Shown here one piece after another: positions 12,787 through 14,992 of a DNA stretch of 15,304 nt. The stretch lies in the IMG/VR virus record IMGVR_UViG_638341087_000005; one strand, 5' to 3'. Each line of letters begins with the position of its first letter. The first letter of the stretch is position 1. Position numbers and translations under genes: made by a program. A model generated the notes under the pieces. The model was given only the letters and a program-made list of their open reading frames with translations. It was not told the DNA's origin and searched no databases. The stretch comes from a virus. Lineage: Duplodnaviria; Heunggongvirae; Uroviricota; Caudoviricetes.

Positions 12787-13140
12787 TTATCGTCGCCGGT
12801 TAACTGCGGGTGGTTGCCCACGGTTCAGCCAGAGATAACAACTGCCCCCGTCATCCGGAGAAACACGATCCACCCAGAACGTCTCACCATTAATGGTCAA
12901 CGTGTCACCACGCCGCACGGCACGAACCGTATCCGTCCGCACAAATAATGACGGGCTGCTTCCTTCAATACGGATCCCACTACTGGCAAACCCCAGCGAC
13001 TCCGGATCGTCAAAAACCCCCTGAACTTCGCCGCCACGCTGTGCACCGGAGGTGAACTGCGCACTGATGCCCATCACTTCAACAATCGTACTGTCCACCC
13101 CGGCAAGGGCGGCATCAAAGGCATTCTGAAAATCACGCAT
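12787..13140 (-). CDS. FII: head-tail joining (head completion) protein FII
   Basis: Start chosen at ATG 13140 (MRDFQNAFDAALAGVDSTIVEVMGISAQFTSGAQRGGEVQGVFDDPES...SSPSLFVRTDTVRAVRRGDTLTINGETFWVDRVSPDDGGSCYLWLNRGQPPAVNRRR), giving 117 aa as in lambda gpFII. The upstream ATG at 13176 lacks a Shine-Dalgarno and adds 12 non-conserved residues. Confidence 0.88.
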   Translation of the reverse strand: MRDFQNAFDAALAGVDSTIVEVMGISAQFTSGAQRGGEVQGVFDDPESLGFASSGIRIEGSSPSLFVRTDTVRAVRRGDTLTINGETFWVDRVSPDDGGSCYLWLNRGQPPAVNRRR

Positions 13141-13507
13141 AAACAGCCATTCCACCATCAACGTGTGTTTTTGCATCTGAGGACATAATCAGAATCACCC
13201 GACCAACATCCGCAAGCTCAACGGATTCCCCCGTTTCACCATCAACGCCACAGAGATGGAGGCAGGTCAGAACTCTGATGCGCGTTAACGCGCCGGATGT
13301 TTCCTCACGAACATCATGAGCCGCGTTTTCCCTCTCCCGGATATCCATATTCATAACCTGTACATCATCGCCGGATGACTGCATTTCCTCTTCCCATTCT
13401 GCCACCCGCTGCGCTATCTCTGCGGCACTCCCGGATATATCCGGCTCACGCCCCAGAATCAGGGCCAGTTCATCAAGCCGTTTCAGATTTTGCTCTTTCG
13501 TTGCCAT
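13133..13507 (-). CDS. FI: DNA packaging protein FI
   Basis: Start at ATG 13507 (MATKEQNLKRLDELALILGREPDISGSAAEIAQRVAEWEEEM...), preceded by SD GGGGGA; 124 aa. Position between E and FII and the acidic N-terminal half are consistent with lambda gpFI (132 aa). The ORF-track start at 13555 would lie inside the terminator hairpin. Confidence 0.82.
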   Translation of the reverse strand: MATKEQNLKRLDELALILGREPDISGSAAEIAQRVAEWEEEMQSSGDDVQVMNMDIRERENAAHDVREETSGALTRIRVLTCLHLCGVDGETGESVELADVGRVILIMSSDAKTHVDGGMAVYA

Positions 13508-13519
13508 ATCATCCCCCTG

Positions 13520-13550
13520 TGAAAAAAGACACGGGGGCATTTCGCCCCCG
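13520..13550 (-). terminator. intrinsic terminator/attenuator between E and FI
   Basis: Perfect 7-bp GC stem CGGGGGC (13532-13538) / GCCCCCG (13544-13550) with 5-nt loop. On the minus strand it is followed by UGUCUUUUUUC (complement of 13520-13530). It lies between the E stop (13559) and the FI RBS. Confidence 0.5.
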
Positions 13551-13558
13551 CTCACGGA

Positions 13559-14587
13559 TTATTTCACCTGTACCACCACAAACTCATCCGGGTCCGGCAA
13601 CACCATCAGCGGCGCGGACTGCGTCATGGTAAATTCACGGGCGGGATCCCCCACCGTCAGCCAGTGTTTCGGATAACGGGAAGAGGCCACCACACCTTCG
13701 GACAACGCCTGCGCATCCTGAATGGCACCATAGCAACGAATGCCCTCTGCTGCCGTATTCCCCAGGACCAGCGAGCCCTCAGGCAGATAACGTTTTTCGG
13801 TACCGTCCTCTGCCACATAAGACGTTTTTGCCACCACAATGGCCAGATCGCCGTAATACCCTTTGAAGGACACCACCGCGCCCAGGTCTTTCACCGCTGT
13901 TTCGAGTTGAGAATTTGAACCGCGACGGGTATCCAGTTTTTCGCGGAACAATTTAAAGCCATTCAGCAGACGCCAGACGGTACCGTCCATAATGGCAATA
14001 TTCACAAGACCGCTGGCCTGGTCGCAGTAGAGGTCAAGATCATGTGTAGGATCGAACGTGTCACGATCCTGTTTTGACCACTCCTTACCACTACCCTGAG
14101 TGATGTTATTCTTCGTCGACCTGCCAAAATCGACCTCAATTTTCTCGAACTGGTCTCCTTCCATCGTGTATTTGCCATACAGCACGGCATTCACCGCCTG
14201 CATTTCTTCCACCTGGACAATGGCGTGCTCTTCCTGTTTGAGGTTATCAGTGATGATACGCAGACGACGGTAGGCCGGGTCGTTCAGCTGAGCCGGATCT
14301 TCACCGGGAAGACGCTCAACCGCCTGCTGGTAATTAAATTCGTGTTTCGGCTTGACGTAGCCCGGACGTAACACGCGGGTTTCACCACCACGATGACGCA
14401 GCACTTTTCCTTCAACAACCGGGGAGACATAGGCCGCCACCGGCGTTTTTCCGGTAATTTTGTCCAGCATCACCTCTTCGGTATGGAAATTCACCGTACG
14501 GCGGAAAAACAGCTCCAGAAACAGCGCACGAAATTTCACTTTTTGTTCGGTATAACCGAGTAACTGGCGGGTCGTAAACAATCCCAT
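13559..14587 (-). CDS. E: major capsid protein E
   Basis: 342-aa ORF; long colinear matches to lambda gpE (341 aa), e.g. PGYVKPKHEFN, QVEEMQAVNAVLYGKYTMEGD, NNITQGSGKEWSK, KLDTRRGSNSQLETAVKDLG, YPKHWLTVGDPAREFTMTQSAPLM. SD AAAGGAA upstream. Confidence 0.95.
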   Translation of the reverse strand: MGLFTTRQLLGYTEQKVKFRALFLELFFRRTVNFHTEEVMLDKITGKTPVAAYVSPVVEGKVLRHRGGETRVLRPGYVKPKHEFNYQQAVERLPGEDPAQLNDPAYRRLRIITDNLKQEEHAIVQVEEMQAVNAVLYGKYTMEGDQFEKIEVDFGRSTKNNITQGSGKEWSKQDRDTFDPTHDLDLYCDQASGLVNIAIMDGTVWRLLNGFKLFREKLDTRRGSNSQLETAVKDLGAVVSFKGYYGDLAIVVAKTSYVAEDGTEKRYLPEGSLVLGNTAAEGIRCYGAIQDAQALSEGVVASSRYPKHWLTVGDPAREFTMTQSAPLMVLPDPDEFVVVQVK

Positions 14588-14617
14588 AAATCAGTTCCTT
14601 TCATTCAGAAATCAGTC

Positions 14618-14635
14618 AGGCCACCGCGGTGGCCT
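14618..14635 (-). other. perfect 18-bp palindrome in the D-E intergenic region (possible RNA stem-loop)
   Basis: AGGCCACCGCGGTGGCCT is its own reverse complement. It lies between the D stop (14645) and the E start (14587) and is followed on the minus strand by only a weak U-rich stretch (gacugauuucug). Confidence 0.3.
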
Positions 14636-14644
14636 GATAACGTG

Positions 14645-14992
14645 TTACGGCAGCGCCGCGTGACTCAGGGCACTGCCGGCAAAGGCATTTGCCTTTTTGT
14701 GTTCATCCACACTTTCAGGCCAGCGGATTGCCTCCGTCGCAAAGGTCCCCGACTTGTAATAGGTCAGTACCGTCTCTGTGCCTTCAAGCGGCAGTACCAG
14801 TATGCCAACTGCACTACCGGCTTTCTGTCCGTCCCAGACCACCAGTTTCCCGCTGGCTTCATCCAGCATCAGGGGCGTCAGTGCCGGTGTTGCCGAGGAA
14901 ATCCCGCTGCTGCCTGTGGCGGTATGAGCCGGATCATTACCGGCAAAAATACGTACTTCCGCACGCTGTTCAGTGATGGTTTTCGTTACCAT
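14645..14992 (-). CDS. D: head decoration protein D
   Basis: 115-aa ORF; ...NDPAHTATGSSGISSATPALTPLMLDEASGKLVVWDGQKAGSAVGILVLPLEGTETVLTYYKSGTFATEAIRWPESVDEHKKANAFAGSA... aligns with lambda gpD (110 aa: [37 protein letters not shown]...TFYKSGTF...TAFAG). SD AGGAGG 9 nt upstream of the ATG at 14992. Confidence 0.93.
   Translation of the reverse strand: MVTKTITEQRAEVRIFAGNDPAHTATGSSGISSATPALTPLMLDEASGKLVVWDGQKAGSAVGILVLPLEGTETVLTYYKSGTFATEAIRWPESVDEHKKANAFAGSALSHAALP

What the first reader, a model, noticed from the sequence alone, without database searches (positions are those of the whole stretch)
13508..13558. Strong GC hairpin plus U-tract between major capsid gene E and FI
A perfect 7-bp all-GC stem with a 5-nt loop, followed by UGUCUUUUUUC on the coding strand, sits in the 51-bp E-FI gap and directly abuts the FI Shine-Dalgarno. 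As a partial terminator it would lower expression of FI and downstream genes relative to E, which is needed in hundreds of copies per capsid; alternatively it could be a 3' stabiliser of the head-gene mRNA. I do not recall a terminator being described at this position in lambda.
Basis: seen in the sequence. Interest (0 to 1): 0.4.

Follow-up and report, generated by a model that had tools for sequence, protein, structure and literature searches.

The report
Conserved RNA hairpin after capsid gene
A strong, terminator-shaped RNA hairpin sits right after the major capsid gene of this phage-21-like prophage; equivalent hairpins follow the capsid gene in lambda, HK97, P22 and most relatives, so it is a real and selected element of a known kind whose function has not been tested.

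Summary
On the minus (coding) strand, the 51-nt gap between the major capsid gene (13559..14587) and the FI gene (ATG at 13507) holds a perfect 7-bp G/C stem with loop GAAAU, then UGUCUUUUUUC, then the FI Shine-Dalgarno. It is the best terminator-like site in the window.

The window is phage-21-like (96.6% nt identity), not lambda. Lambda has a different hairpin at the same spot (AUGGCCC-UUCG-GGGCCAU).

In 129 related loci, nearly every lineage has a GC hairpin 2-17 nt after the capsid stop codon. At least eight unrelated stem sequences occur. Changes keep pairing (G-C to G-U, G-C to A-U). The U-tract ranges from strong to absent.

The hairpin is inherited with the capsid gene when FI alleles are swapped. 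A second conserved hairpin precedes the capsid gene.

Public records already annotate the equivalent element in HK97 ('terminator, putative') and P22 ('similar in location to stem-loops in phage HK97 and phage lambda').

Late transcription uses Q-loaded polymerase, which blocks terminator hairpins. I therefore favour an mRNA decay barrier that protects the capsid message, terminating only polymerases that lack Q. Partial termination is not excluded. It is a new member of a known kind, of modest interest.

The parts
13559..14587 (-). Major capsid protein gene (phage 21 gene 7, the lambda E family). Its stop codon UAA is at 13561..13559.
   Evidence: The ORF is. The DNA is 96.6% identical to the phage 21 head operon M81255.1, annotated 'major capsid protein'. 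The protein is 61% identical to lambda E.
13532..13550 (-). Core hairpin: CGGGGGC / GAAAU / GCCCCCG, a 7-bp all-G/C stem with a 5-nt loop.
   Evidence: Sequence. Fold (-17.7 kcal/mol with extension, z = -3.67). Top terminator-like hit. Natural variants keep the pairing.
13528..13553 (-). Extended hairpin. It adds G13551-U13531, A13552-U13529 and G13553-C13528, with G13530 bulged, which brings the helix flush with the U-run.
   Evidence: This is the MFE and centroid structure. The energy of this structure is -16.5 kcal/mol and the heuristic terminator score is d = 21.0.
13522..13527 (-). U6 run, within UGUCUUUUUUC.
   Evidence: The run is 6-7 U in the phage-21-type variants, once interrupted (UUUAUU in L137). 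Other lineages have a weaker tract or none.
13512..13518 (-). Shine-Dalgarno sequence of FI (AGGGGGA).
   Evidence: The phage 21 records annotate the ribosome-binding site here. The mosaic joint between FI alleles starts at this point.
13133..13507 (-). FI (phage 21 ORF1, DNA-packaging chaperone) gene, with its ATG at 13507..13505.
   Evidence: ORF (the listed GTG-extended ORF 13133..13555 contains it). Annotation.
14616..14637 (-). Second hairpin, in the spacer upstream of the capsid gene (between the D/shp gene and the capsid gene): UCAGGCCAC CGCG GUGGCCUGA. Together the two hairpins bracket the capsid gene.
   Evidence: Hairpins at the same position occur in nearly all lineages with an E-type capsid gene.

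Best explanation
The element is an RNA hairpin at the 3' end of the major-capsid cistron, inside the long Q-antiterminated late transcript.

Proposed mechanism:
1. During lytic growth, Q-loaded polymerase transcribes straight through it, because the hairpin cannot form in the RNA exit channel.
2. Once the RNA has emerged, the hairpin folds.
3. Endonucleolytic cuts occur in the less densely translated downstream message.
4. The hairpin then stops the 3'-to-5' exonucleases (PNPase, RNase II). The capsid-coding segment therefore outlives the FI and tail segments.
5. The hairpin upstream of the capsid gene could additionally give a structured 5' end, as in papA.

The same hairpin plus U-run should act as an ordinary intrinsic terminator only for polymerases that did not acquire Q, such as leaky or spurious transcription in a lysogen.

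What is shown here: the structure, its statistical strength, its conservation of position with turnover of sequence, and its linkage to the capsid gene. What is inferred: read-through by Q-loaded polymerase (from published structures) and the decay-barrier role (by analogy).
For: (1) Strength. The fold is -17.7 kcal/mol with z = -3.67, and the site is the best terminator-like hit in the window.

(2) Conservation of position with turnover of sequence. In 129 loci (50 distinct spacers), a GC hairpin starts 2-17 nt after the capsid stop codon. Exceptions are L060 (no spacer; the next ORF starts within about 10 nt) and L057 (no clean hairpin). At least eight unrelated stem types occur: the phage-21 type, Providencia, Trabulsiella, Serratia, Buttiauxella, the lambda type, Aeromonadaceae and Methylorubrum. 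Each hairpin lies roughly in the top 0-9% of 60-nt windows of its own locus, giving a Fisher combined p of 2e-8.

(3) Pairing is maintained. There are three independent G-C to G-U changes and one double G-C to A-U change in phage-21-type variants, and U-A to C-G in the lambda type. The G-U pairs work only on the sense strand, so the selected molecule is the mRNA.

(4) The hairpin is nearly constant across lineages, whereas the U-tract is not. Trabulsiella, Buttiauxella and Methylorubrum have strong or moderate hairpins and no U-run. Lambda's own tail is UGUUUCUCU, with a heuristic terminator score d = -3.5.

(5) Linkage. Among 83 phage-21-type loci the spacer stays 95.7% identical to the window, while the FI gene falls to about 63% in many. 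The break lies at the FI SD, so the hairpin and U-run travel with the capsid gene.

(6) The capsid gene is bracketed. A second positionally conserved hairpin lies just upstream of it. This matches the papBA arrangement described in PMC5927463.

(7) Q21-loaded polymerase sterically excludes terminator hairpins and is processive over tens of kilobases (bioRxiv 10.1101/651190). All tail genes lie downstream of the hairpin.

(8) Three capsid genes from different lambdoid phage groups carry the same arrangement: the lambda/21 E type, HK97 gp5 and P22 gp5.
Against: No RNA data were available, so there are no 3'-end maps, half-lives or coverage profiles for phage 21 or lambda late mRNA.

The phage-21 version looks like a competent intrinsic terminator. 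Its heuristic score is d = 21.0, against 25.0 and 29.6 for two lambda hairpins that I take, from memory of their coordinates, to be tR2 and t_o. Most enterobacterial lineages do keep a U-rich tail, so selection for termination is not excluded.

From my own memory of the classical literature (Sampson, Hendrix, Huang and Casjens 1988, PNAS 85:5439; not retrievable here), differences in lambda late-protein yield were attributed mainly to translation initiation. That would limit the effect size of any mRNA-level mechanism.

The hairpin begins only 2-9 nt after the stop codon in many lineages, so terminating ribosomes must melt it transiently.
Confidence: 0.45

Rival explanations
1. Partial intrinsic terminator during lytic growth. 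A fraction of late-operon polymerases stops at the U-run, so genes from FI onward get fewer transcripts than the capsid gene.
For: The architecture is canonical: a G/C stem, a 5-nt loop, and a U6 run flush with the bulged extension. The heuristic score of 21.0 is close to the two lambda hairpins I take to be known terminators. U-rich tails occur in most enterobacterial lineages. HK97's annotators called the equivalent element a putative terminator. The phage L paper lists partial termination as one possible role of intra-operon terminators (PMC8022706). From my own knowledge, T7's leaky terminator T-phi after capsid gene 10 sets a precedent.
Against: Q-loaded polymerase excludes terminator hairpins from the exit channel. 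The essential genes FII through J, up to about 12 kb further on within the window, depend on the same promoter and must also pass further terminator-like hairpins. Several lineages have the hairpin without a U-tract, and lambda's own version scores below the terminator threshold. A canonical terminator-like hairpin also lies upstream of the capsid gene in lambda-type phages, where termination would cut capsid expression itself.
Confidence: 0.2
2. Insulating terminator for polymerases that lack Q. It stops leaky read-through or spurious transcripts in the lysogen, keeping structural genes silent, and has no role in the lytic stoichiometry.
For: Unmodified polymerase should terminate at a hairpin plus U6 run. 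The phage L paper proposes exactly this as an alternative role (PMC8022706). The element is carried by prophages in 1560 of 5426 complete E. coli genomes, so most of its evolutionary time is spent in lysogens.
Against: It does not explain why the hairpins sit precisely on both flanks of the capsid gene in nearly every lineage. Nor does it explain why lineages lacking a U-tract keep the hairpin. No promoter-like site was found on the coding strand of the window.
Confidence: 0.12
3. Translational insulator or tuner. The hairpin stops ribosomes that finish the very heavily translated capsid gene from sliding on to re-initiate at FI. Alternatively, through competing pairings, it sets how accessible the FI SD is. 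On this reading the pyrimidine-rich tail is a landing pad for ribosomal protein S1, not a termination signal.
For: The hairpin lies between a stop codon and an SD that are only 51 nt apart. In the full spacer the SD bases are unpaired with probability of only about 0.35-0.5. If the 5' arm is occluded, the 3' arm CCCCCGUG pairs with CAC-A-GGGGG, masking the SD, at -13.5 kcal/mol. The tails are pyrimidine-rich in nearly all lineages.
Against: The outer and alternative pairings are not maintained. Variants with UCCGGG, or with SD alleles GGAGG or AGAGG, show no compensating changes. The hairpin travels with the capsid gene, not with FI and its SD. The upstream hairpin separates two genes that are both needed in hundreds of copies, according to my own knowledge of lambda D and E, so decoupling there would make little sense.
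Confidence: 0.1
4. It is a by-product with no function of its own, such as a recombination joint between modules or an inherited remnant.
For: A mosaic boundary lies within a few nucleotides of the element.
Against: Eight unrelated stem sequences at the same position, substitutions that preserve pairing, and an invariant GGCCC/GGGCC core inside otherwise diverged lambda-type spacers all indicate selection on the structure.
Confidence: 0.05

Closest known systems
Stem-loops or putative terminators immediately after the major capsid gene of other lambdoid phages (HK97 gp5, P22 gene 5, lambda E)
   Same: The position is the same: a few nucleotides after the capsid stop codon, inside the single late operon. 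The build is the same: a short G/C stem, a tetra- or pentaloop and a short U/C-rich tail. Examples are HK97 GGGCGGG-GAAA-CCCGCCC-UUUU, P22 GGGGC-UGCG-GCCCC-UUUCUUU and lambda AUGGCCC-UUCG-GGGCCAU-UGUUUCU. The HK97 record calls it 'terminator, putative'. The P22 record says 'similar in location to stem-loops in phage HK97 and phage lambda'.
   Different: The stem sequence is unrelated (CGGGGGC/GCCCCCG). The loop has 5 nt. The U-run is longer than lambda's. The element is not annotated in either phage 21 record or in the lambda records. No function has been shown for any of them; the phage L paper says of intra-operon terminators that 'their roles are not known'.
Intercistronic mRNA decay barriers and selective RNA processing and stabilisation (malE-malF hairpin, puf operon stem-loop, papBA)
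   Same: A stable stem-loop directly follows the cistron whose product is needed in the largest amount, within a polycistronic RNA. In papBA the major structural subunit's message is flanked by a 5' hairpin and a 3' terminator hairpin, as the capsid gene is flanked here (PMC5927463).
   Different: For those operons the processing sites, exonuclease blockage and half-life differences were measured. Here none of this has been measured. The malE-malF element is a REP repeat dispersed in the host genome, whereas this hairpin is single-copy and phage-specific.
Rho-independent (intrinsic) terminators, for example the lambda hairpins at 38625..38606 and 40597..40618, which I take from memory to be t_o and tR2
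   Same: A G/C hairpin followed by a U-run on the transcribed strand. The heuristic score is 21.0 with the bulged extension, against 29.6 and 25.0 for the two lambda hairpins.
   Different: It lies in the middle of an operon whose polymerase carries an antiterminator. With the perfect stem alone, the U-run starts 4 nt after the helix, giving d = 5.9. Orthologous hairpins in several lineages lack any U-tract.
T7 terminator T-phi after capsid gene 10 (from my own knowledge)
   Same: A hairpin terminator placed right after the major capsid gene, read through by part of the polymerases, so that capsid mRNA is in excess.
   Different: T7 uses its own polymerase and no antiterminator, and the termination efficiency of T-phi was measured. 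Nothing comparable is known here.

Membership tests
Rho-independent (intrinsic) terminator | G/C-rich hairpin with a stem of about 5-14 bp and a loop of 3-8 nt, on the transcribed strand | tested here: met
   A 7-bp perfect G/C stem (10 pairs with the bulged extension) and a 5-nt loop on the coding (minus) strand.
Rho-independent (intrinsic) terminator | U-tract immediately 3' of the stem | tested here: inconclusive
   The U6 run begins 4 nt after the perfect stem (UGUC first). It is flush with the stem only if the bulged G-U/A-U/G-C extension forms. The heuristic score is 5.9 without the extension and 21.0 with it. Orthologues range from 7 of 8 U to 1 of 8 U.
Rho-independent (intrinsic) terminator | RNA 3' ends generated at the U-tract by the polymerase that actually transcribes the region | not testable with these tools
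   No RNA data were available. Published structures indicate that Q21-loaded polymerase cannot form terminator hairpins. Whether this particular prophage has a Q21-type Q gene is unknown, because the Q gene lies outside the window.
Stem-loop after the major capsid gene of lambdoid phages (as annotated in P22 and HK97) | Located within a few nucleotides downstream of the capsid stop codon, before the next head-completion gene, in the late operon | tested here: met
   The stem starts 8 nt after the UAA of the capsid gene and is followed by FI. The placement matches HK97 5192..5213 and P22 6102..6119.
Stem-loop after the major capsid gene of lambdoid phages (as annotated in P22 and HK97) | Short G/C stem with a small stable loop and a short U/C-rich tail | tested here: met
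   The sequences are compared directly.
Intercistronic mRNA decay barrier (malE-malF, puf and papBA type; selective RNA processing and stabilisation) | Stable stem-loop directly 3' of the more highly required cistron in a polycistronic RNA | tested here: met
   The fold is -17.7 kcal/mol, directly after the capsid gene. That the capsid protein is needed in hundreds of copies per head is established knowledge of lambda E.
Intercistronic mRNA decay barrier (malE-malF, puf and papBA type; selective RNA processing and stabilisation) | The structure, not the sequence, is conserved among relatives | tested here: met
   Eight unrelated stem types occur at the same position, and substitutions preserve pairing.
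Intercistronic mRNA decay barrier (malE-malF, puf and papBA type; selective RNA processing and stabilisation) | Processed 3' ends at the hairpin, and a longer half-life of the upstream segment than of the downstream segment | not testable with these tools
   This needs 3'-end sequencing and rifampicin-chase RNA-seq after prophage induction.
REP/BIME dispersed palindromes | Many copies dispersed in intergenic regions of the host chromosome | tested here: not met
   The median is one place per E. coli genome that has it. In all 12 listed records the match lies between 'major capsid protein' and 'gpFI'. There is a single copy in the window.
Any curated RNA family (Rfam 15) | Match at the family's gathering score | tested here: not met
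   There are no matches at gathering score in the whole window. Only chance-level matches (E-values 2.7 and above) occur in 13400..14750.

The most novel reading that the evidence does not exclude
The two hairpins that bracket the capsid gene define a processed, unusually long-lived, effectively monocistronic capsid mRNA (papA-like) cut out of the Q-antiterminated late transcript. This 'hairpin-bracketed capsid cassette' would be a general design rule, arrived at independently by the lambda/21, HK97 and P22 capsid modules. It would add an mRNA-stability layer to late-gene stoichiometry, which has classically been attributed to translation initiation alone.
Probability: 0.3. Interest if true: 0.5.

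Novelty: new member of a known kind. Interest (0 to 1): 0.3.

Why it matters
Lambdoid late operons are the textbook case of one promoter, one roughly 25-kb transcript, and protein yields that differ by orders of magnitude. Terminator-shaped hairpins inside an operon whose polymerase ignores terminators are a small unresolved point; the phage L genome paper says 'their roles are not known'.

This analysis shows that the hairpin after the capsid gene is under clear selection across many lineages, that it is inherited with the capsid gene, and that it is paired with a second hairpin upstream. That turns the question into a directly testable one: decay barrier, leaky terminator or lysogen insulator. 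The element is also very common, being present in prophages of about 29% of complete E. coli genomes. A specialist would not be surprised by its existence.

Tried and rejected
- Rfam search, whole window at gathering score and 13400..14750 at E <= 10: nothing meaningful.
- Literature searches for Term-seq, long-read or ribosome-profiling descriptions of lambda or phage 21 late mRNA ends. No paper held in the library reports 3' ends or coverage steps at this junction.
- Papers not held: the Liu et al. 2013 ribosome-profiling paper, the Casjens and Hendrix 2015 review, and Sampson et al. 1988.
- The EHEC Term-seq paper has no supplementary tables held.
- SD sequestration or an attenuator-like alternative pairing. 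An outer helix between UCCGUG just after the stop codon and CAC-AGG at the FI SD, and an alternative pairing of the 3' arm with the SD, are both predicted. Natural variants change these bases without compensation, so I do not count them as selected features.
- RNase III site: rejected, because the stems are only 5-11 bp. This rests on my knowledge that RNase III needs about two helical turns.
- REP element: rejected, because the hairpin is single-copy and phage-specific.
- A 3'-UTR-derived small RNA with its own promoter: no promoter-like site was found on the coding strand.
- Bidirectional terminator: the antisense strand has the hairpin but no U-run after it (sequence).

Full report
**What is in the sequence.** The genes of this window run on the minus strand. 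The major capsid gene occupies 13559..14587, and its stop codon UAA is at 13561..13559. The next gene starts with ATG at 13507. The 51-nt gap reads, 5' to 3' on the coding strand: UCCGUGAG CGGGGGC GAAAU GCCCCCG UGUC UUUUUU C ACA GGGGGA UGAU, then AUG.

The 35-nt element folds at -17.7 kcal/mol, against -8.8 +/- 2.4 for dinucleotide-preserving shuffles (z = -3.67; 1 of 200 shuffles fold as well). In that fold the helix continues through a G-U pair, a bulged G, an A-U pair and a G-C pair, so the U6 run directly follows the stem. The consensus scan ranks it first among 25 terminator-like sites in the window. Only 8 of 692 sixty-nt windows hold a perfect hairpin this stable.

**What the window is.** It is not lambda itself. 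The region is 96.6% identical to the phage 21 head operon (M81255.1) and to the complete phage 21 genome, and 90-97% identical to about twenty other coliphage records. The capsid protein is 61% identical to lambda E. The gene after the hairpin is phage 21 ORF1, the FI homologue. Neither phage 21 record annotates anything in the spacer except the FI ribosome-binding site. The same 201-nt junction is found in prophages of 1560 of 5426 complete E. coli genomes, with a median of one copy per genome that has it. In all 12 listed records it lies between 'major capsid protein' and 'gpFI'. It is thus a common, single-copy phage element and not a dispersed repeat.

**Comparison with lambda and other relatives.** Lambda has a different hairpin at the same place: UAA UC AUGGCCC UUCG GGGCCAU UGUUUCUCUGUGGAGGAGUCC AUG. 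It is not annotated in NC_001416 or J02459.

I collected 129 loci encoding relatives of the capsid protein from genome and viral collections and extracted the 90 nt after the stop codon, which gave 50 distinct sequences. Many hits in non-enteric assemblies match lambda's own spacer and look like lambda DNA contamination, so I counted them once.

Nearly every lineage has a G/C hairpin starting 2-17 nt after the stop codon, but the stems are unrelated:
- phage-21 type: CGGGGGC/GCCCCCG
- an E. coli/Shigella variant: GCGGGAGC-UAAAU-GCUCCCGU
- Providencia: GGCGGG-GAAA-CCCGCC
- Trabulsiella: an 11-bp stem GCACCACGGUC/GGCCGUGGUGC
- Serratia: GGGGC-UACG-GCCCC
- Buttiauxella: GGGCGG/UCGCCC
- the widespread lambda type: GGCCC-UUCG-GGGCC
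- an Aeromonadaceae genome: CAUGCCCC/GGGGCAUG
- Methylorubrum: a 10-bp G/C stem

The exceptions are L060, where the next gene abuts the capsid gene, and L057, which has no clean hairpin. Measured against all 60-nt windows of its own locus, each hairpin falls roughly in the top 0-9%. Fisher's combination over eight independent stem types gives p = 2e-8.

Variation respects the pairing. Within the phage-21 type there are three independent C-to-U changes that give G-U pairs, one double G-C to A-U change, and loop changes. In the lambda type the five core pairs are invariant while the flanks have diverged, and the sixth pair switches between U-A and C-G. G-U pairs are tolerated only on the sense strand, so the selected structure is in the mRNA. 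UNCG and GNRA tetraloops are frequent (UUCG, UCCG, UGCG, UACG, GAAA).

**The tail is not conserved in the same way.** The number of U in the first eight bases after the stem ranges from 7 down to 1. The Trabulsiella, Buttiauxella and Methylorubrum hairpins run straight into the next gene's ribosome-binding region with no U-run.

I applied a terminator score whose formula I recalled from d'Aubenton-Carafa et al. 1990, using present-day energies, so it is only a heuristic.
- The window's element scores 5.9 with the perfect stem and 21.0 with the bulged extension.
- Two lambda hairpins that I take, from memory of their coordinates, to be t_o and tR2 score 29.6 and 25.0.
- Lambda's own hairpin after E scores -3.5.

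The phage-21 version therefore looks like a competent terminator for ordinary polymerase, lambda's does not, and only the hairpin is common to nearly all lineages.

**Linkage.** Among 83 phage-21-type loci, identity to the window averages 94.4% for the last 300 nt of the capsid gene and 95.7% for the stop codon plus spacer. It averages only 79.8% for the first 360 nt of FI, and many loci are near 63%. The alignments show that identity runs through the U-run to CACAGG and breaks at the FI Shine-Dalgarno. The hairpin and U-run thus travel with the capsid gene across swaps of FI alleles, as expected for a 3' element of the capsid cistron.

**The capsid gene is bracketed.** The spacer upstream of the capsid gene also holds a positionally conserved hairpin. 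In the window it is UCAGGCCAC-CGCG-GUGGCCUGA at 14637..14616, with a poor U tail. In lambda-type phages it is AAAGGCCGC-loop-GCGGCCUUUUUUU, with variable loops and covarying stems. In the alphaproteobacterial relatives it is AGGGCGCC-UCG-GGCGCCCU.

Further terminator-like hairpins on the coding strand lie between the I and J genes, after J, and after the lom-like ORF. Lambda has counterparts between I and J and after lom.

**What is already known.** The HK97 RefSeq record annotates 'terminator, putative' at 5192..5213, directly after the major head gene (GGGCGGG-GAAA-CCCGCCC-UUUU). The phage L genome paper notes a putative terminator at the end of the procapsid gene module, inside the single late operon. 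[quoted passage not shown] The kind of element is therefore known to phage annotators. The phage-21 member is not annotated, and I found no functional test in the literature available to me.

**Mechanism.** Lambdoid late genes are transcribed from one promoter by Q-loaded polymerase. The Q21 structures show a torus that narrows the RNA exit channel. [quoted passage not shown] Q-lambda works likewise according to the abstract listed. All tail genes, up to about 12 kb downstream within the window, depend on read-through. Hairpin-dependent termination should therefore be rare for the polymerases that matter in lytic growth. In addition, a canonical terminator-like hairpin upstream of the capsid gene in lambda-type phages would be counter-productive if it terminated.

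Once the RNA has left the polymerase, the hairpin can fold. A stable stem-loop directly after the cistron needed in the largest amount is the arrangement documented for malE-malF, the puf operon and papBA. In those cases it blocks 3'-to-5' exonucleases after downstream endonucleolytic cleavage. In papBA, a 5' hairpin plus a 3' terminator hairpin flank the message for the major structural subunit (PMC5927463).

I therefore favour a decay barrier that prolongs the life of the capsid message, with true termination only for polymerases lacking Q (confidence 0.45). This is an inference from anatomy, comparative data and published mechanisms. No RNA data were available.

The rivals are:
- partial termination during lytic growth (0.20)
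- a lysogen insulator (0.12)
- a translational insulator or tuner between the capsid gene and FI (0.10)
- no function (0.05)

From memory, Sampson et al. 1988 attributed most of the differences in lambda late-protein yield to translation initiation. If that is right, any mRNA-level effect is probably modest.

**Verdict.** The element is a new, unannotated member of a known kind. Interest is modest (0.3). The useful additions are the breadth of conservation with sequence turnover, the linkage to the capsid gene, and the bracketing by a second hairpin. Together these make the open question of what intra-operon terminator-like hairpins do in antiterminated late operons directly testable.

Noticed in passing
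window 14616..14637 (-); lambda locus L003 501..522: The spacer upstream of the major capsid gene also holds a positionally conserved hairpin in nearly all lineages with an E-type capsid gene. In lambda-type phages it looks like a canonical, even bidirectional, terminator (AAAGGCCGC-loop-GCGGCCUUUUUUU), with variable loops and covarying stems. In the window the U tail is poor. The capsid gene is therefore bracketed by hairpins.
   Followed up: partly
window 5047..5070 (-), 1567..1586 (-), 890..911 (-): Three more terminator-like hairpins lie on the coding strand: between the I-like and J-like tail genes, after the J-like gene, and after the lom-like ORF (938..1537). Heuristic scores are 20.8, 30.8 and 42.8. 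Lambda has counterparts between I and J (15466..15479) and after lom (19613..19632).
   Followed up: partly
window 13505..13520 (-) and loci L122-L142: A mosaic recombination joint lies exactly at the FI Shine-Dalgarno. Loci that are 94-97% identical to the window in the capsid gene and spacer drop to about 63% in FI, which indicates two FI allele families.
   Followed up: yes
window 13512..13558 (-): Predicted outer pairings link the bases just after the capsid stop codon (AUCC, GUGA) with UCAC and GGAU at the FI SD. If the 5' arm is occluded, the 3' arm can mask the SD (-13.5 kcal/mol). Natural variants do not compensate, so this is probably incidental, but translational cross-talk between the capsid gene and FI was not excluded.
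   Followed up: partly
window about 9479, and ORFs 7597..10179 (-): The window contains an ambiguous base (N). The tape-measure (H-like) reading frame is split into three overlapping ORFs, suggesting sequencing or assembly errors or a degraded prophage gene.
   Followed up: no
loci L012-L027, L045-L053, L056 and others: Many genome assemblies of unrelated bacteria (Neobacillus, Kitasatospora, Paenibacillus, Bradyrhizobium, Prevotella, Akkermansia MAG and others) carry short, often low-coverage contigs encoding an E protein that scores like lambda's own (about 61% identity to the window's protein). Those long enough to check have lambda's spacer. This is almost certainly lambda control-DNA contamination.
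   Followed up: no
Aeromonas phage AP1, MT713136.1 250152..250396: A 245-nt stretch 98.8% identical to the start of this capsid gene sits near the end of a 254-kb Aeromonas jumbo-phage record, with no annotated feature. It is possibly an assembly artefact.
   Followed up: no
HK97 NC_002167.1 6692..6719 and 7443..7462 (locus L145): In HK97 the major tail subunit gene is also flanked on both sides by annotated putative terminators. In the window and in lambda the major tail gene V has only 7- and 13-nt spacers and no hairpins.
   Followed up: no
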